Source: Methanobacteriota archaeon (GTDB taxonomy: Archaea > Thermoplasmatota > Poseidoniia > Poseidoniales > Thalassarchaeaceae). Taken from it: a DNA stretch of 64,000 nucleotides. The position numbers and the translations under genes are program-made. Numbering within the stretch: the first letter of the stretch is position 1; each line of letters starts with the position of its first letter. The stretch spans positions 68,359 to 132,358 of the forward strand of contig JABIGF010000028.1 of assembly GCA_018650285.1 (NCBI GenBank), in the 5' to 3' direction. This document shows, piece after piece, positions 2-18,078 of this stretch. The notes beneath the pieces were generated by a model. That model was not told where the DNA came from and made no database searches. It saw nothing but the letters and a program-made list of their open reading frames with translations.

Positions 2-760
2 CTAGTTCACAAACCAGATTTTACTAATATACCAATTGATATAGATGGCTGGAAAACGGCTTACGAAGAGACTGTTGCTATGGCTGAACAGGTCAGGGCA
101 GAATTAGATTTGAGGGTAAGAGTTGTACTTGGACCCCACCCTGCGTCTTGGGTTCATCAAAGTGCGTCACTTGGTTATGAAGTGGCGAATGAATTACACT
201 TAGATGCAGTCGAACTCGCAATTGAATTTTGTGAAGAAAATCTAGCAGTAGGTGTAGGTGAAGTCGGGCGACCACATTGGGATGCAGGTGAAGAGATAAT
301 GGCTCGTGCTGATGAGGTATTGCTTGAGGTGTTGGGGTTGTGTAAACAAGCAAACGTTCCAGCCCAACTTCATTTGGATGGAAACGGTGAAGCAACAAAT
401 CGTGAAATTGCCAAAATTTGTGACCGCGTCCGCTTCCCCCGTTTTGGTGCTATTCACCATCATGCCGAGGGAAATGTCAGCAAGCAGTTCACCCACGGCT
501 TGACATCATCAGTTGTTGTTGGCCGTGAATCAATCAAAGATATCTCGGATTCAATATGGAAAAATGAAGGTGGCTTTTTGATGGAGACTGATTACATGGA
601 TGATCCACGTAGGCCAGGGGCAGTTCTAGGGCCAAAGACAGTCCCTCGTAGAACGCAAGCGTTAGCAACTTCTTTGATAGGAAAAGGAATTGATGCTGAA
701 ACAGCTCTTTGTGCAGTTCACATTGACTTACCTGAGGCGTTATACGGGGAATATGAGTAA
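2..760 (+). CDS. TatD-family metal-dependent hydrolase (TIM-barrel fold), 5'-partial
   Basis: The frame is open from the window edge, with no stop between nt 2 and the first ATG at 80, so the gene probably starts upstream of the window. The segments GEVGRPHW, QLHLDGN, IHHHAEG and METDYMDD resemble metal-ligand strands of TatD/amidohydrolase-fold proteins. Recognition is by eye only. Confidence 0.5.
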   Translation, partial: LVHKPDFTNIPIDIDGWKTAYEETVAMAEQVRAELDLRVRVVLGPHPASWVHQSASLGYEVANELHLDAVELAIEFCEENLAVGVGEVGRPHWDAGEEIMARADEVLLEVLGLCKQANVPAQLHLDGNGEATNREIAKICDRVRFPRFGAIHHHAEGNVSKQFTHGLTSSVVVGRESIKDISDSIWKNEGGFLMETDYMDDPRRPGAVLGPKTVPRRTQALATSLIGKGIDAETALCAVHIDLPEALYGEYE

Positions 761-781
761 TATCTACTCATCAGCTCATTA

Positions 782-806
782 TTTTCTCCGACCTACGGTC
801 GGAAAA
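782..806 (+). terminator. Hairpin downstream of the TatD-like gene (CCGACC-TAC-GGTCGG, flanked by T/A runs)
   Basis: A perfect 6-bp stem at 788-793/797-802 has a TAC loop and can be extended by U-A pairs. It lies 22 nt after the stop at 760, in a 195-nt gap before fabI. Confidence 0.3.
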
Positions 807-955
807 TTACTATTATATTCAAAACCCCTCCTTTTGGGGCATGATTCAGCAATACTTAGATGTCTAACCGAATGATGCTATCGGTTCACACAATAGGCAA
901 AGGTCTTGAAGCCGTCGTCGCCGGCCGACCGATGTTAGTAGGAACAGGTGGTTTA

Positions 956-1747
956 ATGTTGGAACTAGAGGGGAAAACTGCACTAGTCTTTGGTGTCGCA
1001 AGTGAAGAAAGTATTGCGTGGGCTATTTGCGAGCAATTAGCAGCGGCTGGATGCAAACTAATTCTTGGGTTTCAAAAGAGATTCATGAGTAGAGTATTCC
1101 AACTCAAAGATAAGTTGGACGCAATAGAAGCATTCTATCCAATTGATGTTGCGACAAATGAATTGACTGCTGAATTTTTCACCGAATGGCAGGCTGCAAA
1201 CCCTGGTGCGAAAGCTGACATCATCATTCATGCAATCGGATTTGCTCCCAAAGAATGTTTTGACCGTCCAACACTTTTCGTAGACAATGAACCAATGAAT
1301 ACAGCGATGACAATCAGTGCCCATTCGCTTCAAAGGGTGATGCGTCATGCATTACCACACCTGGCATCTAATTCATCAACCATCACTTTGACATACGCCG
1401 CATCTACAAGATGGGTTCCAAATTATGGTATCATGAGTATTGCTAAAGCGGCCCTTGAAGCGTGGACAAGGGAACTTGCCAACAATGTTGGACCAGATGG
1501 TCACCGAATTAATGCGATTTCATCAGGGCCTATCAAAACACTAGCAGCAGGAGGAATTCCTGGTTTTGATGATATTTTATACCATGTTGAGAGAAATGCA
1601 CCACTACGAAGAAATGTAACTCAGAAAGATGTTGCCGGTTGTGCAACTTGGTTAGCATCTCCGATGTCTTCTGGTGTAACGGGACAAATAATTCATGTTG
1701 ATGCTGGTTATTCTAGCATCATGGTCCCAGATAGCATTTCTGATTGA
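956..1747 (+). CDS. fabI: Enoyl-[acyl-carrier-protein] reductase, FabI type (SDR)
   Basis: The N-terminus MLELEGKTALVFGVASEESIAWAI matches the FabI glycine-rich NAD(P)H motif. PNYGIMSIAKAALEA carries the FabI Y-x6-K catalytic pair, and INAISSGPIKTLAA matches the FabI lid. The ORF is open from an ATG at 860, but the ATG at 956 has AGGTGG 5 nt upstream and aligns with FabI N-termini. Confidence 0.85.
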   Translation: MLELEGKTALVFGVASEESIAWAICEQLAAAGCKLILGFQKRFMSRVFQLKDKLDAIEAFYPIDVATNELTAEFFTEWQAANPGAKADIIIHAIGFAPKECFDRPTLFVDNEPMNTAMTISAHSLQRVMRHALPHLASNSSTITLTYAASTRWVPNYGIMSIAKAALEAWTRELANNVGPDGHRINAISSGPIKTLAAGGIPGFDDILYHVERNAPLRRNVTQKDVAGCATWLASPMSSGVTGQIIHVDAGYSSIMVPDSISD

Positions 1748-1752
1748 GGTGA
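1746..1752 (+). promoter_or_regulatory. Shine-Dalgarno site (GAGGTGA) for the megasynthase, overlapping the fabI stop codon
   Basis: GAGGTGA lies 4-5 nt upstream of the ATG at 1757. It is complementary to the canonical 16S rRNA 3' end. It indicates fabI and the megasynthase are co-transcribed and translationally coupled. Confidence 0.6.
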
Positions 1753-1756
1753 AAAA

Positions 1757-4700
1757 ATGTCAGGTCAAAAGCGGAAACCGACATCGCACTCATTCCCTCC
1801 TATTGCGATTGTTGGCCAATCTGCTCTTCTCCCAGGCGCTCCCGATATTGACACGTTTTGGCGTAATGTATTGAACGCGCATGTATCAATTAAGGAAGTC
1901 TCTCCGACAAGGTGGGACCCTAGGGATTTTTGGATTGAAGGTGAACCTGGTAGTGCTCCTGAAGGGAAAACCTATTCTAAAATCGGTGGTTTTATTGAGG
2001 ATTTCGAGTTTGATTGGCGGAGATGGAAACAACCACCGGGTACACTAACTCAAATTGATGACACACAACTTTGGGCTGTTAAAGTTGCAGCAGCAGCATT
2101 AGAAGATGCAGGGTATCTAGGTGAGAAGAATCGTCTTGAACTCGATAGTGAGATGTGTGGTGTCATCTTTGCAAACGCTTTGGGCGGCGAAAATCGGTTG
2201 TTGTCTGGTTTCCGTGTTCATGCTGATGAGATAACTCGTAAAGCAATGGAGGCTGGAATGCCTTCTGAGGGTAGTGAGAAATTCAAAGAAGCACTTGTTG
2301 AGGGTACGCCTCGTGTTGACGAGGATACAATGGCTGGTGAGTTGGCCAATGTTGTTGCCGGTAGAGTAGCAAATCTTCTTGATTTACAAGGCCCTAATTT
2401 CAGTGCTGATGCTGCTTGTGCATCCACTTTTGCTGCTTTAGTGTCGGCTTGTCAAATGCTACATTCTGGTCAAACTGATGTAATGATTTGTGGTGCAAGT
2501 GATCGCACCATGGATCCCGCAACTTATGCGAAGTTTAGTGCGATTGGTGCTTTATCTCCAATCCATTCTCGTCCTTTTGATGCTAGAGCAAATGGATTTG
2601 TAATGGGTGAAGGTGCTGGTTGTGTTGTTCTCAAGCGCTTGGAAGACGCAATTGCAGATGGTGACACAATCTACAGCGTTATTCGTGGTATCGGTGCATC
2701 AAGCGATGGTCGAGGAAAAGGAATTACCGCTCCATCAACCCGCGGGCAAAAACAAGCGTTGAATCGAGCATACGAGCAGGCAGGATATTCAGCATCTACA
2801 GTTGAGTTAATTGAGGCACACGGAACAAGTACCAAAGTTGGTGATGCAACAGAACTCTCAACGTTAGCAGAAGTATTCTCTAATTTGGATGGTGGAGATG
2901 CCGTTGCAGTTGGTTCGGTAAAAAGTCAGATTGGCCATCTCAAAGCAGCGGCTGGGATGGCTGGCTTGCTCAAGGCAAGTTTGGCGTTGCATCACAGAAC
3001 AATCCCGCCGTCTGCAGGATTTGAACAACCAAATACTGCTGTGAATTGGAATGAAATCCCATTTTTTGTTCCAACAGTGGCCACTGAATGGCCTCTTTCA
3101 ACATCAAATACACCTCGCCGTGCAGGAATATCTTCGTTTGGTTTTGGTGGGACAAATTTCCATTGCGCCCTTGAGCAGTACGACCCAGAGCACCACTTGT
3201 CCTTGCTAGAGGATTGGGATAAACCGATTCAAAATCAACCTCTCTTGGCGGATAGTGTGCTTGATAATAGTGCAAATCCATCAATGACTCATGAAGAGTT
3301 GAAAGCGATAGAAGGAGGGGTATTATTGCTTAATGCGAGTGACTTTGAATCACTCGCAGTTGAAATTGAAAAGACAAAAGCAATATTGTTTTCCTCTGAT
3401 TTGAATTTTGATAATACTGCAGAAGGTCGTCGTCTATCGGCAGTATTGCCTGAAATATCTGCTGAATTCTTAGCAAAGGGTGCCCGCTGTGCAGTTGTTG
3501 CAACTAGTTGGGCTCAATTAGAGAAGAGAATGCAACTATTATCGGACAATTTGGATGACCGTGACAAGTGGGATTTCTTGGCCAAGCAGATGGTTTTCAT
3601 TACCGATGAACCACCTCTGCCGTCGTCTGCAAAATTAGTTCAGATGTTTCCTGGGCAGGGTAGTCAATATGTTGGTATGACTCTAGATTTGTCAAAACGA
3701 TTCAATGTAATTGGTGAAACGTGGGATGAGGCTGACAAAACAATGATTGAAATTCTTGATGGAGAGAAACTGTCAGAGTTTGTATTGCGTGAAAATTTAT
3801 CACCCGATGAAGTGAAGATTGCTGAAGAGAAATTGAAGCAAACAGAATTCACTCAGCCAGCAATGTTGACAGCCGATTTAGCAATTTACCGCCTTCTGCA
3901 AGAACATGACATCAATCCAGATATGGTCGCAGGTCATAGTTTGGGTGAATATGCAGCACTAATGGTCTCTGGAATCATAAAGTTCCACGACGCTCTGCGT
4001 GCTGCTGCTGCTCGCGGAACAGAGATGGGTAATGTTGATGTTCCAGATCAAGGATTAATGGCAAGTGTAACTGCTCCTTTTGGAAAAGTGGAAGAAGTCA
4101 TCAATTCAGTTGATGGATATGTGATTGCTGCTAACAAGAATTCACCGTTAATGACAGTCATTGCTGGAGATACTCCGTCTATGCAGTCAGCAATATCAAA
4201 ATTTGATGAATTAAACATCCCATGCGTCACTCTACAAACTAGTCACGCATTCCATTCAAGCATTATTGCTCCAGCAAACGAACCGTTACGCCGTTTCCTT
4301 GAGGGCTTGGAACTATCACTTCCTACAATTCCTATCACTGCTAATTATGATGGGCAATTTTATCCCAATAATTTGGCAGAAGGAGAGACAATTCATGACG
4401 CAATTCTAAGGCAATTAGCACCACAAATGTCGTCAGCAGTTGAATGGACTGAACAAGTTCAAGAAATGTATAGTAAAGGTGGTAGACTATTCATGGAAGT
4501 AGGTCCAAAGAGGGCATTAGCTCTTTTTGCTGAACAGATTCTTCATGACCGTGAAAAAGTAGTGACTAACACAAATCACCCTAAGGTTGGAGGGGTTGCA
4601 AGTTTCCTATCTTCGATAGCAGTTTGTGCATTGGCTGGTCGTGTGCCATCTATGCACGCGCTAAACTCGGACCGCCTATCTAGTGGCTTTAGGGCAGGGC

Positions 4701-7700
4701 CGTTGGAAGTTTGGCAGACAGGTTCGAAAGCCTCAGTTACATCTGCAGCAAGTTCTGCAGAGATGGAAGATTTGCGGGTTCGAGCCCGCCCGCTTCCTAG
4801 TAGTGGTGTCACTAGTCATTCAGCGCCACAAACTAACACGCCATTTGCCGACTCAGTAGTAGAGGAGTTGGTAGACAAAGAGGGTTATTTGGCACATCGT
4901 ATTTCTGAGCTTTCTGGATATCCTACTCGCCATGTTAGGGGGGAACTTGATTTGAGCACATTTGGAATCGCCGGTGCATCTTTGACCAGTTTACTGACGA
5001 AAATTGCAGCAGAAGCAAATGTTTCGGGACCAGCAGATGCTAGTCAACATACCACATTAACGGCTCTTAATGAATGGGTATTATCTCCGCCTACCGGTTT
5101 TACAATTTCTCGTAAAGTCAAGGGCGGTGGTAGCGCTAGTCAGAGTGTAGTTTCTTTGGACTCAATGGCTGAACGTAAAGCGAATCCATATGTCGTAACA
5201 GGAGTGAGCCTCGGATTACCCGGTTTGAGTGAGGTTTTCGCGCCCGATGCACTTGAGCGAATTGTTGCAGGTGAGAATTTTATCAGTGAACTTCCTGATG
5301 AGGTCAAGCAGCGATTATTGGACAAAAATATGGTAAGGATTGTCAAGCATCAAGATGGCCGCGCTGAATTTGTTGCTTGTGATTCGTTTGCAACAATTCC
5401 TCAACTTGCTGGCGTGGGTGGTTACTTTGACTTGGCAGAACAGTATGGTGTAGATGAAAAAATTGTGGCGGCGATGGATATTGCAACCACTCTGTCATTC
5501 GCCGCTGGCTTGGAAGCATTAACCGATGCAGCACTTCCATTGTTACCTGTTGAACAGGTGAGTAGTGTTGGAAAGAGGTTGATTAGAGGTTGGAATCTAC
5601 CCAATTCAATTCGAGAAAGAACCGGTGTAGTGTTTGCTTCGGTATTCCCTGGAATTGCTATGGCTATGCGGCACGCTTTGAATAACGGAGCGGATGAGAA
5701 TGGGACTTTTGATAGACGCTTCCTTCTTCAAGTTTTGACAATGGGGCATGCTCAATTCGCTCAATGGATTGGGGCGCGTGGGCCAAATGCTGCGATTAAC
5801 AATGCTTGCGCATCAACACCTGCAGCCTTCGCAATTGCTGAAGATTGGCTGGCAACCGGCCGCTGTGACCGAGTTATTGTGATTAGCGGTGATGATTCAA
5901 CTGGCGACGATTTGATGGAGTGGATCGGCGCAGGTTTTGCCGCTGCTGGCGCCCATTCAATGGGCAATGTAGTTGAAGAAGTCGCTTTACCATTTGATGC
6001 ACGCCGAAATGGAATGTTACTTGGAATGGGTGGTGCAGCTTTCGTCATAGAGAAATCATCTCATGCAAATGAGAGAGGTGTTGTACCATATGCTGAACTG
6101 TTGGGTGCACATATTGGCAACTCAGCATTCCATCCAACACGTTTGGATGTAGAACATGTCGTGACCACATTTGATAATTTTGTCACAAATATGGAAAATC
6201 GTTGGGGGATTGACCGACATCAAATTGCTCCAAAAACGACCTTCATGTCACACGAGCCGTTCACTCCACCGCGTGGTGGTTCTGCAGCAGCAGAAATCGA
6301 ATCACTACGCGGGGCATTCAAGGAATCTGCTGAGCAGGTCATTATTACCAATACGAAAGGTTTCACTGGACATCCAATGGGCGTAGGTATTGAAGATGCT
6401 ACTGGATTGTATGCTCTTGCATCTGGGAGATTACCACCTATTGCTAATTTCAAAGAACCAGATGAGTCGTTAGGCAATCTCAGATTATCTGAAGGTGGTG
6501 AATATGATGTTGAATATATGTTGAGACATGCTGCTGGATTTGGTAGCCAAATTGCCTTGACAATGTTCAAGCGAATTGCTCGTACACTAAACCGAGTTGA
6601 CCGTGAAGCGGTCATTCGTTGGGCTGCAATTGAGGCTGGAGATGATGTTGAATTGCGTTTGCTGAAACGCAAATTGGTTGCATATGTTTCTCCTGATGAC
6701 TCATTGATAGGTGGTATGGAAGGAAACGAATGGGTTGTTTCTGCCCAAGATGCAGCGCCAGAAAATCAAACCGTAGAAATCCATATAGAAAAGCCCGTAG
6801 AAGTTGTAGCACCGATGCCAACTCCTGAGCCTGATGAACCAGTATCAAAACCCGCTCCAACAATAGTTGGTGGCACTTCACCCGATATTGAGGCGAAGGT
6901 GATTGAAACAGTAGCGGAGCATACAGGTTATCCTGCTGATTTCATAGAACTCGACCAAGATTTAGAGGGTGAGTTAGGAATTGATACAGTCAAACAGGCA
7001 GAAATAATGGCCGATTTAAGAACTGCATACTCATTGCCAGTTGATGATACGTTCCAATTGCGAGAACATCCGACATTGAACCATATGATTGCTTACATCG
7101 TTCGTATGAATGGGGATTCAGAATCTTCCGAACATCAGCCTTTAGAGCCTGTTGAGGATGAACAAACATCAGGTGAAGAGGAAATTGAGTCAATAGATGA
7201 GAATCAATCTGACGACATATCGCCGCCCATTCAGTCAGCAGCCGTGGATAGTGATGTTGAAGCAGGAGTCCTTGAAATTGTGGTAAAACACACTGGTTAT
7301 CCCGAAGATTTTCTTGAATTAGATCAAGACTTGGAAGGTGAATTGGGTATTGATACAGTCAAACAGGCTGAGATTATGGCTGATTGCCGAGAGCGCTATT
7401 CACTTCCAGTAGATGAGGAATTCCAGTTACGAGAGTATCCAACCTTAGCCCACATGATTGGTTATATCATCTCAATGAGAGGTGATTCTGCTACCGTTGA
7501 AACAATTGATGAAATAGAAACGGAGGAAGTGGTGGAAATTCAATCTGATGAAGAACCAGTTGAGAAGCCCTCTACCGACGCCATTGAAAGTGGCGTCCAC
7601 CGTTGGGTTGTAGAAGTTGAAGAGGCAGAACTAGGTCAAGCCCATCCACTTGATATGGGTGGCTCATATGTTATCGTTACAGATGATTCATGGGGCTTGG

Positions 7701-10198
7701 GTAATGCAATATGCCAAAGATTAGAATCAGATGGAATTGAAGCAGTTAGGCTGATGCTAGATCCAAGTATTAAGTCAAAGGTGCGAATTGAAAAAGATGG
7801 TGAAGTTGACATTATTCGTCTTGACCCAGGGAACCCAGATCATATTCTACAGTTTGGCGAAGTAATTACCGACTTAGATGTTGCAGGTGTAATTCACACA
7901 GCACCTTGTACACTTGCTGGTATGGCTTGGGCGGAGGTCACTAGTCGGCAGCAGACACAGATGGTCTGTCACGGATTATTCGGTGTGTTGCAGCAAATTG
8001 ATGCAAAATTGGCACAAAGAAGCGATGGTATAGTCTGTTCAATTTCGGCATTAGATGGCCGACACGGAAATGGCGGCCACAGATTCAATGCACTTGGTGC
8101 AGGCGCTCATGGTATAGTCAAATCATACGGGAGAGAAAGACCAAACATTCGTTCTCGTGCATTAGATGTTGCTCCAGAATTACTTGTGAATGCTGATGAT
8201 TTAGCAGCCACAATTCTCAGTGAAATTGAACAGATGGGCCCACGTGAACTTGGAATTGATGCAGATGGTAGGCGTTGGAGCGTTTGCATTTATGATGAAC
8301 CGCATGAGAATGGAGTGGAGTCATTACAATCAGATGATGTGTTCCTTGTTTCAGGTGGCGGCTCTGGTGTTACTGCTGCTTGTGTCGTAGGTTTAGCAGA
8401 GGCAAACCAAAATGTGGGTTGTCACTTCAGTCTTCTTGGTAGGACTACATTAGACGCTTCACTCTCAAAGCACATCGATGTATCTGATGAAGAGTTGAAC
8501 CAGATGAAGATGGAATTGCGTGAACAGATGCAATCAGAATCAGGTAAGGTGACAATTGTTGATTGGGAAGGTGCATGGTCCAAGATAGTACGTTCATTAG
8601 ACATTCACCGCACTATTGCACTTATTACGGCGTCTGGGAACAGTGCATCATACCATGTTTGTGATGTTACTAATAGCAAACATATTCGTAAGGTTTTGAA
8701 GAAGTTGAAGAAGAAGCGCCCGCCAGTTACTGGAATCATTCATGGGGCAGGAATTGAAGACTCAAAATTGATTTCAGACAAAGATTGGGATACTTTTTCA
8801 AAGGTTATGGCGGTAAAGGTTGATGGTTGGCAAGCTCTCATTAATGCGGTCAAAGACCATAGTAAGGAATTGCGATATTGTTGCGCTTTTACTTCAATTG
8901 CTGGCAGATTTGGCAATGGCGGGCAGACTGATTATGCTGCAGCCAATTGCATTCTTGATGCTGAAATGTCAAGGCTTACTCATACCGATAATGAGCCGCA
9001 CGGTTTAGCAATCGCTTGGACCGGTTGGAGAGATGTCGGCATGGCTACCCGCGGTTCAATTGAGAAAGTATTCTCTGATGCAGGGATTGAGACCGTATCT
9101 GTTGACCAAGGTGTTGACATGTTTGTTGAAGAGGTGATGCGAGGCGGTAAGCGCCGAGTCGTAATTGCTGGCAGTCTTGGTATTCTCAATGATGATGGTT
9201 CAGATAGGGAGCCACCACAACGACTTGCTCCAGAGGTTGCTGCTTTGCTGTCAGATGCAGCACGCTTCCCATTTGTTGACAAGATAACTAACCACGAATC
9301 ATTTGACACACTCTCTTATGAGTGCACATTGGATACAACTCGTTTTCCATTCTTAGATGATCATGAGATTGAAAATGTCCCATATCATCCTGGGGTGATG
9401 GCATTGGAAATGTTTTCAGAAGCTGCTCAATTACTTTGGCCTCCATGTTCAGTAATCGGTTTTGCAGGAGTTAACTTTGGTTTGCCAATCAAATTACTCA
9501 AAGATGAGATGAAGGTTAGAGTGGTTGCTGAATTCTCACATCAAAACGACAACAATGTATGGGTGAAGTGTCGGCTTGAATCGGATTTGATTAACAAAAA
9601 GGGGGAGATATTTGGCGAACCAAGGATTCATCACAAGGCTTTGGTCAGGCTTTTGAAAAAGAAAGCGGACCGAGGTCTTCTCAAATTACCTTCTATTGGC
9701 ATGCCTTCAAAAGGTGGCGTATCATACGGTTCTGAGTTTGTATACAAACGCTTTTTCCACGGTCCTAAATTCCAATCTCATGGCGGTATTCAAGGTGGTT
9801 GCCACATCAATGGCATGGATGGGGCAGATGGTATTGCTTTGTCGCGCCATCAATTGCCAGATGTCAAACAGTTTGCAGTTGGTGAAGTAATTCTAGAAGC
9901 GCAACCAATGTTGATTGAGGCTTGTTTCCAAAATGCGGGCATGGTGGCAATGGAGATTGATAAAATTCAATCATTGCCAATTGGAATCGAGATGCTTGAG
10001 TTGATTAGAACTCCTGAGGTTGGCGATTCATTGAGAATGAGGGCGGTTCGTCGTGGTGCAGAAGATGATGGCGTGACAATTCATGATTGCATGATTGTCA
10101 ATCAAGATAGCAAACCAGTGGTGGCGCTGAAGGGGCTGCGATTGAAGGGAATGGCTCCGATAGATTCGGATGATTATTTCTCATTAAATCGCAATTGA
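1757..10198 (+). CDS. Type I iterative fatty-acid/polyketide megasynthase, PfaA-like (KS-AT-ACP'-KS-ACP-ACP-KR-DH), 2813 aa
   Basis: Motifs were read directly from the translation. KS1 is at about 1796-3181: DAACAS with Cys221 at 2417-2419, EAHGTSTKVGD, GSVKSQIGHLKAAAG, FGFGGTNFH. The AT domain is at about 3638-4550: FPGQGSQ, GHSLGEY with Ser728 at 3938-3940, and HAFHS, the malonyl-type specificity motif. An ACP-like helix bundle is at about 4847-5085 (FGIAGASLTSLL). KS2 is at about 5183-6580: NNACAST with Cys1351 at 5807-5809, SHEPFTPP, TKGFTGHPMG. Two tandem carrier domains are at about 6881-7110 and 7249-7480 (ELGIDTVKQAEIMAD). KR is at about 7590-9190 (VSGGGSGVT, FGNGGQTDYAAAN). A double-hotdog PKS-type dehydratase (PS-DH) is at about 9262-10195 (LDDHEIENVPYHPGV, HGPKFQ). 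Confidence 0.9.
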   Translation: MSGQKRKPTSHSFPPIAIVGQSALLPGAPDIDTFWRNVLNAHVSIKEVSPTRWDPRDFWIEGEPGSAPEGKTYSKIGGFIEDFEFDWRRWKQPPGTLTQIDDTQLWAVKVAAAALEDAGYLGEKNRLELDSEMCGVIFANALGGENRLLSGFRVHADEITRKAMEAGMPSEGSEKFKEALVEGTPRVDEDTMAGELANVVAGRVANLLDLQGPNFSADAACASTFAALVSACQMLHSGQTDVMICGASDRTMDPATYAKFSAIGALSPIHSRPFDARANGFVMGEGAGCVVLKRLEDAIADGDTIYSVIRGIGASSDGRGKGITAPSTRGQKQALNRAYEQAGYSASTVELIEAHGTSTKVGDATELSTLAEVFSNLDGGDAVAVGSVKSQIGHLKAAAGMAGLLKASLALHHRTIPPSAGFEQPNTAVNWNEIPFFVPTVATEWPLSTSNTPRRAGISSFGFGGTNFHCALEQYDPEHHLSLLEDWDKPIQNQPLLADSVLDNSANPSMTHEELKAIEGGVLLLNASDFESLAVEIEKTKAILFSSDLNFDNTAEGRRLSAVLPEISAEFLAKGARCAVVATSWAQLEKRMQLLSDNLDDRDKWDFLAKQMVFITDEPPLPSSAKLVQMFPGQGSQYVGMTLDLSKRFNVIGETWDEADKTMIEILDGEKLSEFVLRENLSPDEVKIAEEKLKQTEFTQPAMLTADLAIYRLLQEHDINPDMVAGHSLGEYAALMVSGIIKFHDALRAAAARGTEMGNVDVPDQGLMASVTAPFGKVEEVINSVDGYVIAANKNSPLMTVIAGDTPSMQSAISKFDELNIPCVTLQTSHAFHSSIIAPANEPLRRFLEGLELSLPTIPITANYDGQFYPNNLAEGETIHDAILRQLAPQMSSAVEWTEQVQEMYSKGGRLFMEVGPKRALALFAEQILHDREKVVTNTNHPKVGGVASFLSSIAVCALAGRVPSMHALNSDRLSSGFRAGPLEVWQTGSKASVTSAASSAEMEDLRVRARPLPSSGVTSHSAPQTNTPFADSVVEELVDKEGYLAHRISELSGYPTRHVRGELDLSTFGIAGASLTSLLTKIAAEANVSGPADASQHTTLTALNEWVLSPPTGFTISRKVKGGGSASQSVVSLDSMAERKANPYVVTGVSLGLPGLSEVFAPDALERIVAGENFISELPDEVKQRLLDKNMVRIVKHQDGRAEFVACDSFATIPQLAGVGGYFDLAEQYGVDEKIVAAMDIATTLSFAAGLEALTDAALPLLPVEQVSSVGKRLIRGWNLPNSIRERTGVVFASVFPGIAMAMRHALNNGADENGTFDRRFLLQVLTMGHAQFAQWIGARGPNAAINNACASTPAAFAIAEDWLATGRCDRVIVISGDDSTGDDLMEWIGAGFAAAGAHSMGNVVEEVALPFDARRNGMLLGMGGAAFVIEKSSHANERGVVPYAELLGAHIGNSAFHPTRLDVEHVVTTFDNFVTNMENRWGIDRHQIAPKTTFMSHEPFTPPRGGSAAAEIESLRGAFKESAEQVIITNTKGFTGHPMGVGIEDATGLYALASGRLPPIANFKEPDESLGNLRLSEGGEYDVEYMLRHAAGFGSQIALTMFKRIARTLNRVDREAVIRWAAIEAGDDVELRLLKRKLVAYVSPDDSLIGGMEGNEWVVSAQDAAPENQTVEIHIEKPVEVVAPMPTPEPDEPVSKPAPTIVGGTSPDIEAKVIETVAEHTGYPADFIELDQDLEGELGIDTVKQAEIMADLRTAYSLPVDDTFQLREHPTLNHMIAYIVRMNGDSESSEHQPLEPVEDEQTSGEEEIESIDENQSDDISPPIQSAAVDSDVEAGVLEIVVKHTGYPEDFLELDQDLEGELGIDTVKQAEIMADCRERYSLPVDEEFQLREYPTLAHMIGYIISMRGDSATVETIDEIETEEVVEIQSDEEPVEKPSTDAIESGVHRWVVEVEEAELGQAHPLDMGGSYVIVTDDSWGLGNAICQRLESDGIEAVRLMLDPSIKSKVRIEKDGEVDIIRLDPGNPDHILQFGEVITDLDVAGVIHTAPCTLAGMAWAEVTSRQQTQMVCHGLFGVLQQIDAKLAQRSDGIVCSISALDGRHGNGGHRFNALGAGAHGIVKSYGRERPNIRSRALDVAPELLVNADDLAATILSEIEQMGPRELGIDADGRRWSVCIYDEPHENGVESLQSDDVFLVSGGGSGVTAACVVGLAEANQNVGCHFSLLGRTTLDASLSKHIDVSDEELNQMKMELREQMQSESGKVTIVDWEGAWSKIVRSLDIHRTIALITASGNSASYHVCDVTNSKHIRKVLKKLKKKRPPVTGIIHGAGIEDSKLISDKDWDTFSKVMAVKVDGWQALINAVKDHSKELRYCCAFTSIAGRFGNGGQTDYAAANCILDAEMSRLTHTDNEPHGLAIAWTGWRDVGMATRGSIEKVFSDAGIETVSVDQGVDMFVEEVMRGGKRRVVIAGSLGILNDDGSDREPPQRLAPEVAALLSDAARFPFVDKITNHESFDTLSYECTLDTTRFPFLDDHEIENVPYHPGVMALEMFSEAAQLLWPPCSVIGFAGVNFGLPIKLLKDEMKVRVVAEFSHQNDNNVWVKCRLESDLINKKGEIFGEPRIHHKALVRLLKKKADRGLLKLPSIGMPSKGGVSYGSEFVYKRFFHGPKFQSHGGIQGGCHINGMDGADGIALSRHQLPDVKQFAVGEVILEAQPMLIEACFQNAGMVAMEIDKIQSLPIGIEMLELIRTPEVGDSLRMRAVRRGAEDDGVTIHDCMIVNQDSKPVVALKGLRLKGMAPIDSDDYFSLNRN
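6881..7480 (+). repeat. Tandem duplication of the carrier-protein (ACP) module, period about 369 nt / 123 aa
   Basis: VAEHTGYPADFIELDQDLEGELGIDTVKQAEIMADLRTAYSLPVDDTFQLREHPTLNHMIAYI repeats as VVKHTGYPEDFLELDQDLEGELGIDTVKQAEIMADCRERYSLPVDEEFQLREYPTLAHMIGYI. The two copies are separated by acidic linkers. Confidence 0.85.
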
Positions 10199-10227
10199 AA
10201 AATTAATTTATCAATTGAGGAATTACA

Positions 10228-10926
10228 ATGTGGGAACCAGTCGGAAAACCTACTTTTCTAGACCTTCCAAAAGGTGCTCACCAAGAGTCAATAGCCGCAT
10301 GGATTGAAGTGCGTCCAACTTCTCCTATGGATCCTGTTCCCGATGTATCTGCACAGAGGTTTGTTGATTCAATTGAAGCATCTAAATTTGCCATGGCGAA
10401 AAGGGCTGAGGAGCATGCCGCCGCTCGTTGGTTAGTTGAATACCTATTATTGGAGAGTGGTCGCAATCCTAAACTGTTCAAAATTCAACGTGATGATTAC
10501 CGTCGCCCTCGCCTCATAGGTCAAAATGCCCCATCTATGACAATCACTCATAGCGGTGGGATTGCTGCAGTATTACTAGGTCCCAAGGATATTGATATTG
10601 GATTAGATTTGGAACCATTGATGCCTCGTCCTAGGAATATTCTCTGCATGATGTCTTCTGGCAAGGAGAGAGCTGAACTTGAATCTCTATATGATGAAGA
10701 TGAGAAGAACGCTTCTTCTCAAACCACAGATGTGTGGGTTGCTAAGGAGGCAATACAGAAGGCTGCAGGGCTTGGGATGGGTCTTCCTCCTCAATCGTTT
10801 GAGGTGTATGGGCGTAATGTGGTCAATGTTGGTATTGATGGCGTCAATAATATTTTCAATCTTCATTGCTGGAAAGCAAATCTCAATGGTCAATTAACTT
10901 CATTGGCCATTGCAGAAAAGGTCTAA
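10228..10926 (+). CDS. 4'-phosphopantetheinyl transferase, Sfp/PfaE type
   Basis: ITHSGGIAAVLL...DIGLDLE and WVAKEAIQKAAG correspond to the PPTase G-x-D-x-E and W-x-x-KEA-x-x-K motifs. A GAGG site lies 7 nt upstream of the ATG, and the gene starts 29 nt after the megasynthase stop. Confidence 0.85.
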   Translation: MWEPVGKPTFLDLPKGAHQESIAAWIEVRPTSPMDPVPDVSAQRFVDSIEASKFAMAKRAEEHAAARWLVEYLLLESGRNPKLFKIQRDDYRRPRLIGQNAPSMTITHSGGIAAVLLGPKDIDIGLDLEPLMPRPRNILCMMSSGKERAELESLYDEDEKNASSQTTDVWVAKEAIQKAAGLGMGLPPQSFEVYGRNVVNVGIDGVNNIFNLHCWKANLNGQLTSLAIAEKV

Positions 10927-13251
10927 TCACTTGCTAATTTCAGCATCTAGGATACTTTCATCTTGTGACAATTGTTTTGTCAACCAATAGGTGAAAGCAA
11001 TTGCAATTATCCATAGAGGGATATTTGCTCTGTAGAATGTCTCGTATGCGATGATATCAGTTTTCCCTGAACTAATGAAATATCCTAGGGCAAAGAAACC
11101 TGCTAGAATTCCAATTGATTGCCCTAAGAAGGCTACGAGACTCGCCATGCCAATTCCACGATTCCTTTCATCTTCATTGGTGAATTTAGCCATTAGCGCA
11201 TCGTTTGAGACTAGCAACATTGGATAGATTGGTACTACAAAGATTAGAACCGCAATCATTGGTGGTAACCCAATGCTGAATATGGACCAAAGTGTCCCAT
11301 ATGCTGCTGCAGACCAAAATAGAACGGTCTGCGCTCCTCTTTCATCACATACCTTGCCAATTACTGCGTATAGGACTAGAACGGCAACTACTGCCCATGC
11401 CTCTAACAGTCCCGTGAAGTCCACATCAAATCCTACGACTTCTAGATAGCGCAGAGCAGTCAATACTACTGCACCGCGTGGAATTGCTACTAGTATTACT
11501 CCAAGTAAACAGAGCATAGCCCATTTACTTTCAAATCTGAATATCCCACGGAACATTGTTAACTTCTCTTTGAAACTTAATTTCACAGGCTCTGGCTTAT
11601 TACCTCCCTTCAGCATCCAAATAGGCCAGGAAAAATCATCACCTTCGAATTTCATTATCATTAAGGCACCGACAACTAATGCTGGGATTGAAAATCCAAC
11701 AAGCCCAAGCATTGCATAGGTTGACCCTGAAGGCAATAGCATCACATACAATTTGCTGCATACCATTGAACCAATTGCTGCTGCGAATGAAGCGAATGCG
11801 TAGAGTACTCCAAGGAACTCACCTTTCTGTTCAGGGAACCATTCTGTACCAACAGCGACCCCCATTCTGACTGAAGCAAATAATGCAATTTGTATTGTTG
11901 AAGCAATGATGTACGCTTCAAGTGGGAGGAATGGGAATGAGGCCATTATGACACTGGCACCAATCATGGCAAACAACATCAATTGTTTTCTGTGGCCCCA
12001 TTTGTCTGCAATAGCGCCCCAAATAGGCCCAAAGGCACCAAGGGCAAAAGCGAGTAAACACAGATGGAGAATAACCACATCTTCAGAAGCGCCCAATTCA
12101 CGAGAATGGAAGGAATACAGAATCAGTGCGTTGTTAATTCCACCTATTAGGAATGCTGCTGCAATAAATAATCGCTTTAGATCCCCCTCTTCTCTAGAAC
12201 CATGCCCCAACTCTTTTGCACTTTCTTTTAGGGAACGATAGCGCCCCATGAGCCAGAATCCTACAGCCACAAGTACTGGTATTGTGAGATAAAACAGGAC
12301 ATCCTTGAATCCGCTAGAGAGAATGCTAGGCCCTCTGTCATCCATTTCGAATACGGCTTGATTGGTATTTCCTTGATTACCCGAAGAGTCATTCCACATT
12401 ATGTGGGCTTCTAGAATGGTCCCATCTTTCCATACTTCAATTTCCCAACGATAGACGCCACCATCCGAATCAGTGCCGTCTTCTGTTGGTTCAAGGAGGT
12501 GCTCATCATTACCATCAGTTGCGTGAATAATCAGTGTCCCTTCCTCAAACAATTTGTCACTTAGAGCCCACCTAACTTGAGCGGCCCAAATCACATCAGA
12601 GCGCGAATAGTTCTCATGCTCACCTCTGAACATTGTCCCCTCACTCTCGAGGTAAGGGTCGTCAACTTGGTACATACCAGCAGAGATTGTTAGATTGGTG
12701 GGTGTCTCTGATGAGCCCCAGTGGATGGTGCAAGAGTTAGTATCAAAGGGATTTATTTCTTCACTGTTAACTGTCCAGCGAATTGAAAGAGTTTGGTCAA
12801 TTGAAATATTATCTGGTAAATTCCCTCCCGAGAAATCAATACGCTGCTTCTCTTCAGAAAGTGAAATCCCACCACTATTGATTTGGTCTAATTCAGTTCC
12901 ATCAATGAACAGAAAGAGGTCAATATTTACTTGTCCGCTTCCACTTGCCCAAAGTGAGAAATTCCAAGACTCGCTACCAATCGGGGCATCCCTAACAAAA
13001 TTCGTAGTAGTGAGGGTGGGGCCATCGGAGGCAAAAGATACGAACTGCAAAGGGAAATCGTGAGTAGACATCTCTGCCTGTTCTTTCAATTCAGGAGAGA
13101 GTGTATCTTGACTTTGAGCAAAAAGAGAGGTAGTCCTAATGGGTGGAGAATACTCAACTTCAGGGGGAAGAACATCCTCTTCTCCTGTTGTTGTGGGTAT
13201 GACAAGAGTCCCAATCACCAAAACTAGTGTGACTAGGATAATTCGTTTCAT
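10927..13251 (-). CDS. MFS transporter fused to an N-terminal extracellular domain of about 330 aa
   Basis: It has a signal/anchor sequence (MKRIILVTLVLVIGTLVIP) followed by a soluble Asn/Ser/Trp-rich domain. About 12 TM helices follow, with the MFS loop motif GAIADKWGHRKQ. Its stop codon directly abuts the PPTase stop, a convergent junction with 0-nt spacing. Confidence 0.75.
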   Translation of the reverse strand: MKRIILVTLVLVIGTLVIPTTTGEEDVLPPEVEYSPPIRTTSLFAQSQDTLSPELKEQAEMSTHDFPLQFVSFASDGPTLTTTNFVRDAPIGSESWNFSLWASGSGQVNIDLFLFIDGTELDQINSGGISLSEEKQRIDFSGGNLPDNISIDQTLSIRWTVNSEEINPFDTNSCTIHWGSSETPTNLTISAGMYQVDDPYLESEGTMFRGEHENYSRSDVIWAAQVRWALSDKLFEEGTLIIHATDGNDEHLLEPTEDGTDSDGGVYRWEIEVWKDGTILEAHIMWNDSSGNQGNTNQAVFEMDDRGPSILSSGFKDVLFYLTIPVLVAVGFWLMGRYRSLKESAKELGHGSREEGDLKRLFIAAAFLIGGINNALILYSFHSRELGASEDVVILHLCLLAFALGAFGPIWGAIADKWGHRKQLMLFAMIGASVIMASFPFLPLEAYIIASTIQIALFASVRMGVAVGTEWFPEQKGEFLGVLYAFASFAAAIGSMVCSKLYVMLLPSGSTYAMLGLVGFSIPALVVGALMIMKFEGDDFSWPIWMLKGGNKPEPVKLSFKEKLTMFRGIFRFESKWAMLCLLGVILVAIPRGAVVLTALRYLEVVGFDVDFTGLLEAWAVVAVLVLYAVIGKVCDERGAQTVLFWSAAAYGTLWSIFSIGLPPMIAVLIFVVPIYPMLLVSNDALMAKFTNEDERNRGIGMASLVAFLGQSIGILAGFFALGYFISSGKTDIIAYETFYRANIPLWIIAIAFTYWLTKQLSQDESILDAEISK

Positions 13252-14474: not shown

Positions 14475-15512
14475 TCACTCATCACGATCAGAATGGCGCT
14501 CCATTGGTGCCCGTTCAAAGTCTATGAAATTGATATCAAGAGGCTTGTCATTTTTTAACAAAAGTTGTTGGCATTTCACTCTGAAATCCTCTTCATTCAT
14601 CTCTCCTGCGAAATCAATGAGTAGTTCATTACCACTCATTTCTCCTCTCATCCAGTCTCCGTCACCACGGTGGTTTTGTGCTGGTTGTGGATAGATGATG
14701 TCAGTACTCCAAGGAGTGACTCTAACGATGGTCTTCTCACCCTTTTCGGAGGTGCTAATAATATCGTATTCAAGATGTCCATCACTGAATTCTCGGTGAG
14801 CAATAATGGTTCCATCCTCAAGTAATTCAAGACTAATTTCAGGCGCCTCTTCTCTTTCGCCTCTTTCTCCATGGCTATTTCTTAGTCGCTCCATTAATAC
14901 CCGCAATTCTCTGCATGATTCATCATCGCCACTTTCACAAGCTTCTCTCAAATTGCCAATCATTTCTCTAAGGTCGCCACGGTCTCGTGACTCATTATCA
15001 TGAGTGGAATCATTGTGGGGTGCCCAACCATGTTCTTCTAGGAAAGAAGAAAAATTTTCCCTGGAATAATTGGTGGTAGTTGTGACGCCGTTTGCATCAA
15101 TTATTGATACTACATAGCCCGAATCAGTACGGGATACTGAAATGTGGTCAGGAAGATGCCAGTCAACTTCGGTAGTGTTGTCTGATGAGTTATCAGGCTC
15201 ATTTGCTTGCCTTCCAGCCGCCGTGTTTCTTTCACGTATTGAGGTGGATAAATCCCACTCACCTAGATTTCTGTCAGTAGGTATTCCATCATCTAGGTTG
15301 TTGCATCGCTCAATCCAAGCATCATCAGATTTCAATGAAGTAGAATCAGAAGCAGCCTTTTCATTGGTATTCCCACTATTGTCAGTTGCAGCAGTGTCGT
15401 CCATTTCAAGAGATGTCATTGATGCCATCCCTCCTAAAACTAAGAGTACAACTAGAAGGATGCTTAGGGCGCCGTTTAATCGAATTCCTGTGCCTGATGC
15501 CATATTAACCAA
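14475..15512 (-). CDS. Hypothetical secreted/anchored acidic protein
   Basis: It has an N-terminal signal anchor (ALSILLVVLLVLGGMASM) followed by an acidic, Asp/Glu/Ser/Asn-rich sequence. No recognisable catalytic motif. Confidence 0.55.
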   Translation of the reverse strand: MVNMASGTGIRLNGALSILLVVLLVLGGMASMTSLEMDDTAATDNSGNTNEKAASDSTSLKSDDAWIERCNNLDDGIPTDRNLGEWDLSTSIRERNTAAGRQANEPDNSSDNTTEVDWHLPDHISVSRTDSGYVVSIIDANGVTTTTNYSRENFSSFLEEHGWAPHNDSTHDNESRDRGDLREMIGNLREACESGDDESCRELRVLMERLRNSHGERGEREEAPEISLELLEDGTIIAHREFSDGHLEYDIISTSEKGEKTIVRVTPWSTDIIYPQPAQNHRGDGDWMRGEMSGNELLIDFAGEMNEEDFRVKCQQLLLKNDKPLDINFIDFERAPMERHSDRDE

Positions 15513-15557
15513 TTATTGAGGAGCGGTGGTCCTTTCAATAGTTTGTGTTTGTGAATT

Positions 15558-15573
15558 TGACCCTTTAGGGTCA
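15558..15573 (-). terminator. Palindromic hairpin TGACCC-TTTA-GGGTCA downstream of the TSP3-repeat gene
   Basis: A perfect 6-bp stem lies 24 nt after the stop at 15597, in the 84-nt gap before the next minus-strand gene. Confidence 0.3.
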
Positions 15574-15596
15574 CCTAGGGTGGTGAAAAGTGAAAT

Positions 15597-17999: not shown

Positions 18000-18078
18000 T
18001 CAGACTTCACATATCAATCCCTCGCAATGAGTGACATTGGCACATTAGGCTTGAAATGGGGGTGGTGGTCGGGCCACC

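What the first reader, a model, noticed from the sequence alone, without database searches (positions are those of the whole stretch)
956..10926. Self-contained fabI-megasynthase-PPTase operon: an ACP-dependent type I fatty-acid/polyketide machine in an archaeal genome
Three co-directional genes are packed with 9-nt and 29-nt gaps, each preceded by a GAGG-type SD. The first is a FabI enoyl-ACP reductase with the Y-x6-K pair. The second is a 2813-aa KS-AT-ACP'-KS-ACP-ACP-KR-DH protein. The third is an Sfp/PfaE-type PPTase. Together they supply every activity of a fully reducing elongation cycle: condensation, malonyl loading (HAFH motif), carrier, KR, DH and ER, plus carrier activation. The motif style (DAACAS, GSVKSQIGHLKAAAG, the EKTGYP-like ACP leader, FGNGGQTDYAAAN) is closest to PfaA of bacterial PUFA / secondary-lipid synthases. 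The layout is not the canonical pfaABCD. A second Cys-containing KS sits in front of the ACPs, a trans FabI stands where PfaD would be, there is no PfaB or PfaC, and no thioesterase or reductase release domain is present. The surrounding genes are clearly archaeal (tRNA-Gly and PCNA within 3.5 kb; TFS and Nop5-fibrillarin further on). I found no transposase, integrase or flanking repeat that would mark an island. Archaea are generally regarded as lacking ACP and ACP-dependent fatty-acid synthases. This would therefore be an autonomous acyl-chain factory in an archaeon, relevant to the debate on bacterial-type lipids in marine planktonic Euryarchaeota. The product and the off-loading route are unknown.
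Basis: partly seen in the sequence, partly recalled or inferred. Interest (0 to 1): 0.88.

Follow-up and report, generated by a model that had tools for sequence, protein, structure and literature searches.

The report
Archaeal lipid megasynthase with threonine carriers
A marine planktonic archaeon (Marine Group II) carries, as an old and conserved part of its genome, a bacterial-type three-gene fatty-acid/polyketide factory of a family already catalogued in bacteria, and its carrier domains have a threonine where all characterised carrier proteins have the serine that holds the cofactor.

Summary
Three co-directional genes encode a FabI-like enoyl reductase (956-1747), a 2813-aa KS-AT-(vestigial ACP)-KS2-ACP-ACP-KR-DH protein (1757-10198) and an Sfp-type PPTase (10228-10926). 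They lie in a genuinely archaeal context (PCNA, TFS, Nop5, fibrillarin, NMD3). It is not a chimera. The same locus occurs in four independent assemblies, composition is flat, and about 50 Marine Group II species share TatD-FabI-synthase-PPTase synteny. The KS2 tree mirrors the MGIIa/MGIIb split.

The layout is not new. It is the "Type R secondary lipid synthase" of Shulse & Allen (2011), which is widespread in bacteria. In the bacterial loci read here, a long acyl-CoA dehydrogenase (often with ETF) lies upstream, and in most loci an acetyl-CoA carboxylase lies downstream. MGII replaced these with FabI.

The "CLF" is a FabF-like KS with an intact Cys-His-His triad.

Both ACPs carry Thr (T1744, T1867) at the phosphopantetheine site. 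This holds for 922 of 987 ACP domains in the family.

Most likely function: an iterative, fully reducing acyl-chain synthase. The product, the release route and modification of the threonine are all inferred.

The parts
956..1747 (+). FabI-like trans enoyl reductase (263 aa from ATG 956; an upstream in-frame ATG at 860 gives 295 aa)
   Evidence: Pfam adh_short_C2 5e-66. The best NCBIfam models are all FabI, but scores fall below the equivalog cut-offs (229 vs 391 bits). Y157-x6-K164 aligns with E. coli Y156/K163. It lies directly upstream of the synthase in nearly all MGII loci that extend that far, at 67-92% identity.
1757..10198 (+). 2813-aa iterative type I synthase: KS1-AT-(vestigial ACP)-KS2-ACP-ACP-KR-DH
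   Evidence: The best NCBIfam model is TIGR02813 PfaA at 858 bits, below the 1010 cut-off. More than 100 full-length homologue clusters are named MGII, Poseidoniales or Thalassarchaeaceae.
1799..3196 (+). KS1, PKS/PfaA-type ketosynthase (C221, H355, H394)
   Evidence: Pfam ketoacyl-synt plus Ketoacyl-synt_C plus KAsynt_C_assoc. The triad is invariant. The closest solved structures are type I PKS KS-AT didomains.
3644..4609 (+). Acyltransferase, malonyl-type (GHS728LG, H830AFH)
   Evidence: Pfam Acyl_transf_1. NCBIfam FabD 1.3e-53. The motifs are invariant.
4889..5083 (+). Gly sits at the attachment position, so it is not a functional carrier.
   Evidence: 4.6 bits against a family ACP HMM. No Pfam hit. 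0-4% invariant columns. The equivalent position holds D, E, A or G in other MGII proteins and an intact Thr-ACP in some bacterial relatives.
5324..6676 (+). KS2, FabF-like ketosynthase with an intact triad (C1351, H1499, H1539). This domain was labelled 'CLF' in the 2011 classification.
   Evidence: phmmer hit to FabF structures, 4ddo 1.5e-23, with active-site residues aligned. The triad is invariant in 19 MGII homologues and 13 cross-phylum sequences.
6884..7114 (+). ACP1, with Thr1744 (ACA, nt 6986-6988) at the phosphopantetheine site
   Evidence: Pfam PP-binding. The alignment to PDB ACPs puts T on the DS serine. The AlphaFold model has T as the first residue of helix II and matches ACP folds at TM 0.7-0.8.
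7250..7483 (+). ACP2, with Thr1867 (ACA, nt 7355-7357)
8324..9046 (+). Ketoreductase (Rossmann motif VSGGGSGVT; catalytic Tyr in GQTDYAAAN)
   Evidence: Pfam KR 9e-28. The motifs are conserved. PKS KR structures match.
9293..10147 (+). PKS-type double-hotdog dehydratase (H2536; second-half motif PMLIEACFQN)
   Evidence: Pfam PKS_DH_N plus PS-DH. The His and the E/Q motif are invariant.
10228..10926 (+). Sfp-type 4'-phosphopantetheinyl transferase
   Evidence: Pfam ACPS 5.6e-9 plus 4PPT_N. It aligns to Sfp with ITHSG, GLDLE and WVAKEAIQK in place of ISHSG, GIDIE and WSMKESFIK. A profile finds it directly downstream of the synthase in 41 MGII loci and in several bacterial loci.
10927..13251 (-). 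Convergent MFS transporter with an unannotated 370-aa N-terminal extension. It is a conserved neighbour and its link to the operon is uncertain.
   Evidence: Pfam MFS_1 and MFS_1_like. It holds the same position in several MGII loci.

Best explanation
This is the Marine Group II (Poseidoniales, MGIIb/Thalassarchaeaceae-like) version of the bacterial 'Type R' Pfa-like iterative type I synthase. A bacterium donated it before MGIIa and MGIIb diverged, and it has been inherited vertically since.

Proposed mechanism:
1. The Sfp-type PPTase installs phosphopantetheine on the two tandem ACPs, on Thr1744 and Thr1867 (inferred).
2. The AT loads malonyl units from malonyl-CoA (motif-level inference).
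3. Two catalytically intact ketosynthases share the condensations, probably over different chain-length ranges. KS1 is PKS-type and KS2 is FabF-like (inferred by analogy with dual-KS PUFA synthases).
4. KR and the PKS-type DH process each beta-keto intermediate.
5. The co-transcribed FabI reduces the enoyl-ACP in trans. In the bacterial relatives a long acyl-CoA dehydrogenase, often with ETF, appears to fill this role.

The expected product is a saturated or largely saturated long acyl chain. There is no TE, reductase or FabA-type isomerising DH domain, so a PUFA product is not expected. Release is probably by a trans acyltransferase or thioesterase encoded elsewhere, for example the PlsC homologues reported in MGII. 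The chain would then feed ester-type or other 'secondary' lipids.
For: Shown:
- Gene order, spacing and domains.
- All catalytic residues of KS1, AT, KS2, KR, DH, FabI and the PPTase are present, and those of the synthase domains are conserved across MGII homologues.
- KS2 aligns to FabF with its triad.
- The same locus occurs in 4 independent assemblies.
- GC content is flat, and the tetranucleotide correlation of 0.95 lies inside the window's range of 0.94-0.966.
- TatD-FabI-synthase-PPTase synteny holds in about 50 MGII species.
- MGII is monophyletic in a KS2 NJ tree and splits into MGIIb and MGIIa groups.
- Bacterial homologues share the full domain order at 44-54% (KS1) and 44-50% (KS2) identity. 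Almost all that extend far enough have a long ACAD directly upstream, many also have ETF and an Fe-S protein, and most have a multidomain ACC downstream. None has FabI.
- The architecture matches published Type R.
- dS is saturated while dN is 0.15-0.48 against an orthologue (L008), which indicates purifying selection.

For functional carriers:
- The ACPs are among the best conserved parts of the protein.
- Copy number varies from 1 to 4.
- Thr is encoded by all four ACN codons.
- Ser and Thr interchange among orthologues with identical synteny, and within one tandem array in P0226.
- A PPTase gene is always attached.

Against: - There are no experimental data of any kind for this family. The Type R product was unknown in 2011, and I found no later characterisation in the held library.
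- The carrier serine is absent. From my own recollection, an E. coli ACP S36T mutant is not modified by AcpS, so threonine modification cannot be assumed.
- No release domain or adjacent acyltransferase or thioesterase was found.
- No acetyl-CoA carboxylase lies next to the MGII operon.
- FabI scores below all NCBIfam equivalog cut-offs.
- The tree is a distance tree without support values.
- Chain length, degree of saturation and the fate of the product are guesses.
Confidence: 0.7

Rival explanations
1. It is a specialised 'secondary lipid' or polyketide pathway rather than a supplier of membrane acyl chains. Possible products include a long-chain hydroxy, alkenyl or alkyl compound, a glycolipid aglycone as made by HglE, or a primer for another enzyme as made by ArsA/ArsD.
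For: The family was classified as a secondary lipid synthase. An antiSMASH-based survey (retracted paper) lists T1PKS and HglE-KS clusters in Poseidoniaceae. There is no TE. A conserved MFS transporter lies next to the operon. Bacteria that carry the family are likely to have FAS II as well, although this is my own inference and was not tested.
Against: The operon is conserved in both MGII families, sits among housekeeping genes, and includes a full reducing set with FabI. The bacterial clusters carry their own acetyl-CoA carboxylase, which suggests bulk flux. No tailoring genes lie within 10 kb.
Confidence: 0.22
2. The Thr-for-Ser ACPs are not phosphopantetheinylated. In that case the synthase is either inactive or works on CoA-bound or otherwise tethered substrates, and the ACP-like repeats have a structural role.
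For: Thr occupies the exact attachment position. I found no described natural Thr-linked phosphopantetheine in the held library. Archaea are thought to run ACP-independent fatty-acid chemistry (my own knowledge: Lombard 2012, Dibrova 2014).
Against: Thr is maintained in 922 of 987 ACP domains, across bacteria and archaea, with all four codons in use. A PPTase gene with intact catalytic motifs is co-inherited. Ser and Thr swap between close orthologues. A truly dead ACP in the same protein (aa 1045-1109) has degenerated completely, which shows what relaxed selection looks like in this protein.
Confidence: 0.06
3. The operon is bacterial DNA mis-assembled or mis-binned into an archaeal contig.
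For: All its nearest relatives outside MGII are bacterial. MAG-derived data are prone to chimeras.
Against: Four independent assemblies give the same junctions to PCNA, TBP-like and TatD genes. About 50 MGII species show the same synteny. There is no GC or tetranucleotide break. The gene tree follows the MGIIa/MGIIb split.
Confidence: 0.02

Closest known systems
Type R secondary lipid synthase (Shulse & Allen 2011, PMC3098273): a pfaA homologue KS-MAT-CLF-ACP(3-6)-KR plus a PPTase, in Koribacter, Solibacter, Elusimicrobium and Roseiflexus
   Same: It is a single megasynthase with a second KS-like domain between AT and tandem ACPs, followed by KR, and it has an associated PPTase of the P1b' (hShxH) type. 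The product is unknown. Bacterial relatives retrieved here share the whole domain order at 44-54% (KS1) and 44-50% (KS2) identity, and they also have Thr-ACPs.
   Different: The host is an archaeon. The trans reductase is FabI, not a long acyl-CoA dehydrogenase with ETF and an Fe-S oxidoreductase. No acetyl-CoA carboxylase is attached. There are only 1-4 ACPs. The ACP between AT and KS2 is degenerate. The 'CLF' label does not fit, because KS2 keeps its Cys-His-His triad. The four named Type R genomes themselves were not among my loci.
PfaA of pfaABCD(E) PUFA synthases
   Same: The KS-AT-tandem ACP-KR-DH backbone is shared. PfaA is the best NCBIfam model (TIGR02813). Both are iterative systems with a trans ER and a dedicated PPTase.
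   Different: The score is below the family cut-off (858 vs 1010). There is no PfaB, no PfaC (KS-CLF plus FabA-type DH2) and no PfaD (FMN-dependent ER). An extra FabF-like KS sits inside the protein. The ACP motif is LGIDTVKQAEI, whereas PfaA has LGIDSIKRVEI (from my own knowledge). PUFA products are not expected.
Bacterial type II FAS components FabF and FabI
   Same: KS2 aligns to FabF structures with an intact triad. The reductase is FabI-like with Y-x6-K.
   Different: KS2 is embedded in a type I polypeptide. FabI is below the equivalog cut-offs, and here it serves a megasynthase rather than free AcpP.
HglE/HglC heterocyst glycolipid synthase and ArsA/ArsD type I FAS of Azotobacter (own knowledge)
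   Same: These are Pfa-like iterative synthases that make saturated or hydroxylated long chains. They hand the chain directly to a downstream enzyme without a TE.
   Different: The domain partition differs, with KS-CLF on a separate protein. Their ER domains are of other types and their ACPs carry Ser. No partner type III PKS or glycosyltransferase lies nearby here.
Proposed ACP-independent archaeal fatty-acid synthesis (Lombard 2012 and Dibrova 2014, cited)
   Same: It addresses the same question of how archaea obtain fatty acyl chains.
   Different: That proposal uses thiolase-type and beta-oxidation-type enzymes on CoA esters. The system here is a carrier-domain megasynthase of bacterial origin.

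Membership tests
Type R secondary lipid synthase (Shulse & Allen 2011) | One pfaA homologue with KS-MAT-(second KS-like domain)-tandem ACP-KR | tested here: met
   Pfam on the whole protein and on pieces. The same order is found in bacterial loci by tblastn.
Type R secondary lipid synthase (Shulse & Allen 2011) | PPTase gene associated with the synthase, with a P1b'-type (hShxH) motif | tested here: met
   The PPTase starts 29 nt downstream. The motif reads ITHSG. A profile finds the PPTase downstream in 41 MGII loci.
Type R secondary lipid synthase (Shulse & Allen 2011) | KS groups phylogenetically with Koribacter, Solibacter, Roseiflexus and Elusimicrobium Type R KS domains | tested here: inconclusive
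   The nearest non-archaeal relatives include many Acidobacteriota and an Anaerolineales MAG. The four named reference genomes were not in my set, and only an NJ tree of KS2 was made.
Type R secondary lipid synthase (Shulse & Allen 2011) | The second KS-like domain is a chain length factor with no active-site Cys | tested here: not met
   C1351, H1499 and H1539 are invariant in MGII and in cross-phylum relatives. The label 'CLF' seems inaccurate for the whole family, so this does not exclude membership.
PfaA (omega-3 PUFA synthase subunit A) | Scores above the TIGR02813 cut-off | tested here: not met
   857.9 bits against a cut-off of 1010.1.
PfaA (omega-3 PUFA synthase subunit A) | Partners PfaB, PfaC (KS-CLF-DH2) and PfaD in the cluster | tested here: not met
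   The neighbours are TatD, FabI, PPTase, MFS and PCNA. No such genes lie within 10 kb.
Acyl carrier protein / PP-binding domain | Four-helix carrier fold | tested here: met
   Pfam PP-binding 6.8e-15. The AlphaFold model has pLDDT 78.5. All top Foldseek matches are ACPs at TM 0.7-0.8.
Acyl carrier protein / PP-binding domain | Conserved Ser at the N-terminus of helix II as the phosphopantetheine attachment site | tested here: not met
   Thr1744 and Thr1867 occupy that position. Across the family, 922 of 987 ACP domains have Thr and 27 have Ser.
Acyl carrier protein / PP-binding domain | Actually carries 4'-phosphopantetheine | not testable with these tools
   This needs mass spectrometry of the domain co-expressed with the PPTase.
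FabI enoyl-ACP reductase | SDR fold with the Y-x6-K catalytic pair | tested here: met
   adh_short_C2 5e-66. Y157/K164 align to E. coli Y156/K163.
FabI enoyl-ACP reductase | Scores above an NCBIfam FabI equivalog cut-off | tested here: not met
   The best score is 228.8 bits against 391. The 12 best-scoring models are FabI, but none reaches its cut-off.
Sfp-type (group II) PPTase | About 230 aa with two ACPS-like halves, Mg-binding D-x-E and the W-x-x-K-E-x-x-x-K catalytic helix | tested here: met
   4PPT_N plus ACPS. Alignment to Sfp 1qr0 and 4mrt shows GLDLE and WVAKEAIQK. These motifs are conserved in 45 family PPTases.
Genomic island or recent horizontal transfer | Compositional break, mobility genes, patchy distribution | tested here: not met
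   plus the Pfam scans, show no integrase or transposase. The gene tree follows the host split.

The most novel reading that the evidence does not exclude
The whole Type R family, bacterial and archaeal, uses O-phosphopantetheinyl-threonine carrier domains installed by its own co-inherited PPTase. As far as I could find, this would be an undescribed natural variant of the otherwise serine-only carrier-protein modification. In Marine Group II this machine would be the cell's main fatty-acid synthase, supplying ester-linked acyl chains for a mixed archaeal/bacterial membrane.
Probability: 0.35. Interest if true: 0.85.

Novelty: new variant of a known kind. Interest (0 to 1): 0.62.

Why it matters
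Marine Group II archaea are among the most abundant planktonic archaea. They are uncultured, lack the G1P dehydrogenase of archaeal lipid synthesis, and have unknown membrane lipids. [quoted passage not shown]

Pinning that hypothesis to one conserved three-gene operon makes it directly testable, because about 10 kb can be expressed heterologously.

Separately, a family-wide threonine at the cofactor site of hundreds of carrier domains challenges a textbook invariant of carrier-protein biochemistry. If the threonine is modified, it would also define a new PPTase specificity that could be useful for orthogonal labelling.

The swap of a long ACAD (often with ETF) in bacteria for FabI in MGII points to the long acyl-CoA dehydrogenase as an unrecognised trans enoyl reductase.

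Tried and rejected
1. Chimera or island. Rejected on four assemblies, composition and synteny.
2. ACP' as a third functional carrier. Rejected, because it is vestigial.
3. KS2 as a CLF. Rejected, because the triad is intact.
4. An alternative serine in the ACPs. The only other Ser (AYSLP) is not conserved, being Gly in P0060.
5. A PPTase signature that co-varies with Ser-type versus Thr-type ACPs. Three columns, two of them in the catalytic helix, separate 4 Ser-type from about 36 Thr-type MGII PPTases. Bacterial Thr-type PPTases do not share those residues, so the signal is phylogenetic and inconclusive.
6. Tracing the PPTase to bacterial donors. The word-index search reached only 19 MGII proteins.
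7. A release enzyme in the neighbourhood. The MFS N-terminal extension, the 345-aa and 85-aa ORFs and the upstream 257-aa ORF gave no Pfam hits. The upstream 401-aa ACAD is an ordinary short ACAD, only 28% identical to the bacterial long ACAD, and is not conserved in most MGII loci.
8. dN/dS. dS is saturated, so only a qualitative statement is possible. The script then crashed on an N-containing codon.
9. Literature. Ten full-text searches found no paper analysing this synthase in archaea and none on threonine-linked phosphopantetheine. Villanueva et al. 2017 and the Beld 2014 PPTase review are not held, so prior description there cannot be excluded.
Full report
**Observation**

- A FabI-like gene runs 956..1747. 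An in-frame ATG at 860 is used by gene callers in this lineage. Orthologues are called at 263 aa, which matches the 956 start.
- A 2813-aa ORF runs 1757..10198.
- A 232-aa ORF runs 10228..10926.

The intergenic gaps are 9 and 29 nt. GAGGTG and GAGG sit upstream of genes 2 and 3, and GGTGG sits upstream of ATG 956.

Pfam gives these domains:
- adh_short_C2 (5e-66) for gene 1
- KS (aa 15-422), AT (630-951), a weaker second KS (about 1290-1570), two PP-binding domains, KR (2285-2426) and PKS_DH_N plus PS-DH for gene 2
- ACPS plus 4PPT_N for gene 3

NCBIfam ranks FabI models first for gene 1 and PfaA (TIGR02813) first for gene 2. Both fall below their curated cut-offs. There is no thioesterase or reductase domain.

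**Host and integrity**

The surroundings are archaeal:
- PCNA
- tRNA-Gly
- a TFS-type zinc ribbon at 21919-22329
- Nop5 and fibrillarin
- NMD3

GC content is flat. The operon's tetranucleotide profile correlates 0.95 with the rest of the window, inside the 0.94-0.966 range of other 10-kb segments.

The identical protein is found on four independently assembled contigs with the same neighbours. The 120 best homologue clusters (54-77% identity, full length) carry Marine Group II, Poseidoniales or Thalassarchaeaceae names wherever a name exists.

In species-representative genomes, about 50 MGII species have the same arrangement. TatD-FabI-synthase was detected by tblastn and the PPTase by profile.

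A neighbour-joining tree of the KS2 domain puts all 52 MGII sequences in one clade of 55 tips. That clade splits into a 12-tip group holding the window and Thalassarchaeaceae (MGIIb) and a 43-tip Poseidoniaceae (MGIIa) group.

Against an orthologue (L008), synonymous sites are saturated while dN is 0.15 (FabI), 0.31 (synthase) and 0.48 (PPTase).

The locus is therefore a long-resident, selected part of MGII genomes. It is not a chimera or a recent island.

**What the synthase is**

All catalytic residues are present, and they are invariant in 19 diverse MGII homologues:
- KS1: C221, H355, H394
- AT: GHS728 and H830AFH
- KR: Rossmann motif and the Tyr in GQTDYAAAN
- DH: H2536 and the PMLIEACFQN motif

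The second KS aligns to solved FabF enzymes (4ddo, 1.5e-23). Its Cys (C1351), His (H1499) and His (H1539) fall on the FabF triad, and these are invariant across phyla. It is therefore a potentially active condensing domain, not a chain length factor.

It gives no Pfam hit, lies in the least conserved stretch of the protein, scores 4.6 bits against a family ACP profile and has Gly at the attachment position. In some bacterial relatives an intact ACP sits at this place. The ancestral layout was therefore probably KS-AT-ACP followed by KS-ACPn-KR-DH.

**The family beyond archaea**

A profile-free search with aa 1150-1950 against 50%-identity representatives found 926 clusters below 1e-30.

After MGII, the best hits are Acidobacteriota, Myxococcota, Actinomycetota, Calditrichia, Anaerolineales and a deltaproteobacterium, at 56-60% identity in the KS2 core. 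These share the complete KS1-AT-KS2-ACPn-KR-DH order.

Their neighbours differ from the MGII arrangement.
- Almost all bacterial loci that extend far enough have a long (530-560 aa) acyl-CoA dehydrogenase directly upstream. It is 61-93% identical between phyla.
- Many also have ETF-beta, ETF-alpha and a CCG-type Fe-S protein upstream.
- Most have a multidomain acetyl-CoA carboxylase downstream, sometimes with the PPTase.
- No FabI is present.

This matches the "Type R" secondary lipid synthase of Shulse & Allen (2011). Type R is a pfaA homologue KS-MAT-CLF-ACP(3-6)-KR followed by a PPTase. It occurs in Koribacter, Solibacter, Elusimicrobium and Roseiflexus, with an ACC gene in Koribacter, and its product is unknown. 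No archaea were listed.

The MGII operon is thus a variant of a known but uncharacterised kind. The long ACAD and its ETF partners are replaced by FabI, and the carboxylase is not attached.

**The threonine**

Both ACPs read ELGIDTVKQAEIM. HMMER alignments to solved ACPs place the Thr exactly on the DS serine. An AlphaFold model (pLDDT 78.5) has it as the first residue of helix II, and every top structural match is an ACP.

A family ACP profile finds 987 ACP domains in the proteins and loci collected here:
- 922 have Thr
- 27 have Ser
- the D, E, A and G cases are mostly the vestigial first ACP
- bacterial loci have Thr in 83 of 84 domains

Thr is encoded by all four ACN codons, and the Ser cases use TCN.

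Ser-type proteins occur in a few MGIIb subclades with unchanged synteny. They also occur in a protein named as from a Heimdallarchaeota MAG, and mixed with Thr in one tandem array, P0226.

The PPTase keeps the Sfp catalytic motifs.

I infer that the threonine is the functional attachment site, but nothing here proves it. A search for PPTase residues that track Ser versus Thr was inconclusive.

**Mechanism**

Shown:
- domain content
- intact active sites
- operon structure
- conservation

Inferred:
- phosphopantetheinylation of the Thr-ACPs
- malonyl loading by the HAFH-type AT
- condensation shared between KS1 and the FabF-like KS2
- KR and DH processing
- trans enoyl reduction by FabI
- iteration to a saturated long chain

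Release is unresolved. No candidate lies within 10 kb. PlsC homologues reported for MGII are the obvious candidates. A specialised secondary-lipid role remains a serious rival.

**Literature position**

MGII papers state that the group lacks G1P dehydrogenase and has G3P dehydrogenase, PlsC homologues and a "putative" or "hypothetical" bacteria-like fatty acid pathway.

A retracted antiSMASH survey lists T1PKS and HglE-KS clusters in Poseidoniaceae.

I found no analysis of this synthase itself. Villanueva et al. 2017 could not be read.

**Verdict**

I rate it a new variant of a known kind, of moderate to high interest, mainly because it makes the MGII lipid question and the threonine-carrier question experimentally tractable.

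Noticed in passing
L053, L058, L059, L069, L073, L075, L076, L082 (Acidobacteriota), L065 and L084 (Actinomycetota), L080 (deltaproteobacterium); about nt 500-6300 and 14800-20900 of each locus: The bacterial relatives of the synthase sit in a strongly conserved cassette. Its order is CCG-type Fe-S protein, ETF-beta, ETF-alpha, a long acyl-CoA dehydrogenase (61-93% identical across phyla), the synthase, sometimes a PPTase, then a eukaryote-like multidomain acetyl-CoA carboxylase. The ACAD may be the trans enoyl reductase that FabI replaces in MGII.
   Followed up: partly
P0151 (3234 aa; NCBI MCY3414055.1): A homologue named as coming from a Candidatus Heimdallarchaeota MAG has six Ser-type ACPs. 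The family may therefore be present in a second archaeal lineage. Its genomic context was not examined.
   Followed up: no
window 6986-6988 and 7355-7357; family-wide: Within any one protein the functional tandem ACPs are almost always all Thr or all Ser. This suggests concerted evolution of the repeats or co-adaptation with the PPTase. P0226 is an exception, with the order S, T, S.
   Followed up: partly
window 10927-13251 (-): The convergent MFS transporter has a 370-aa N-terminal extension with no Pfam match. Orthologues next to Ser-type synthases (L004, L005) are about 460 aa and lack the extension.
   Followed up: partly
L001 7496-8113 and window 80-760: A small protein with a weak TBP-domain match, followed by a TatD-type hydrolase, precedes FabI in most MGII loci. 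The conserved block is therefore larger than the three genes.
   Followed up: no
window 29486-32791 (-) and 32962-34950 (-): A fused B12-binding/MeaB/methylmalonyl-CoA mutase (IcmF-like, 1101 aa) lies next to an AMP-forming acyl-CoA synthetase. These are acyl-CoA metabolism genes about 20 kb from the synthase.
   Followed up: no
window 15597-17999 (-), 45246-47789 (-), 54246-59126 (+): These are large ORFs of 800, 847 and 1626 aa. The first has thrombospondin type 3 repeats, the 847-aa ORF has no Pfam match, and the 1626-aa ORF was not scanned. They are possibly surface proteins.
   Followed up: no
window 10228-10926 and MGII loci: The PPTase evolves much faster than FabI or the synthase. Its identity to the window protein is 29-67% by tblastn, while FabI stays at 67-92%. 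A word-index search finds only 19 relatives.
   Followed up: partly
L077 3-5675 (Myxococcales MAG): A PPTase-profile hit lies inside the long synthase reading frame. This suggests a synthase-PPTase fusion in that lineage.
   Followed up: no
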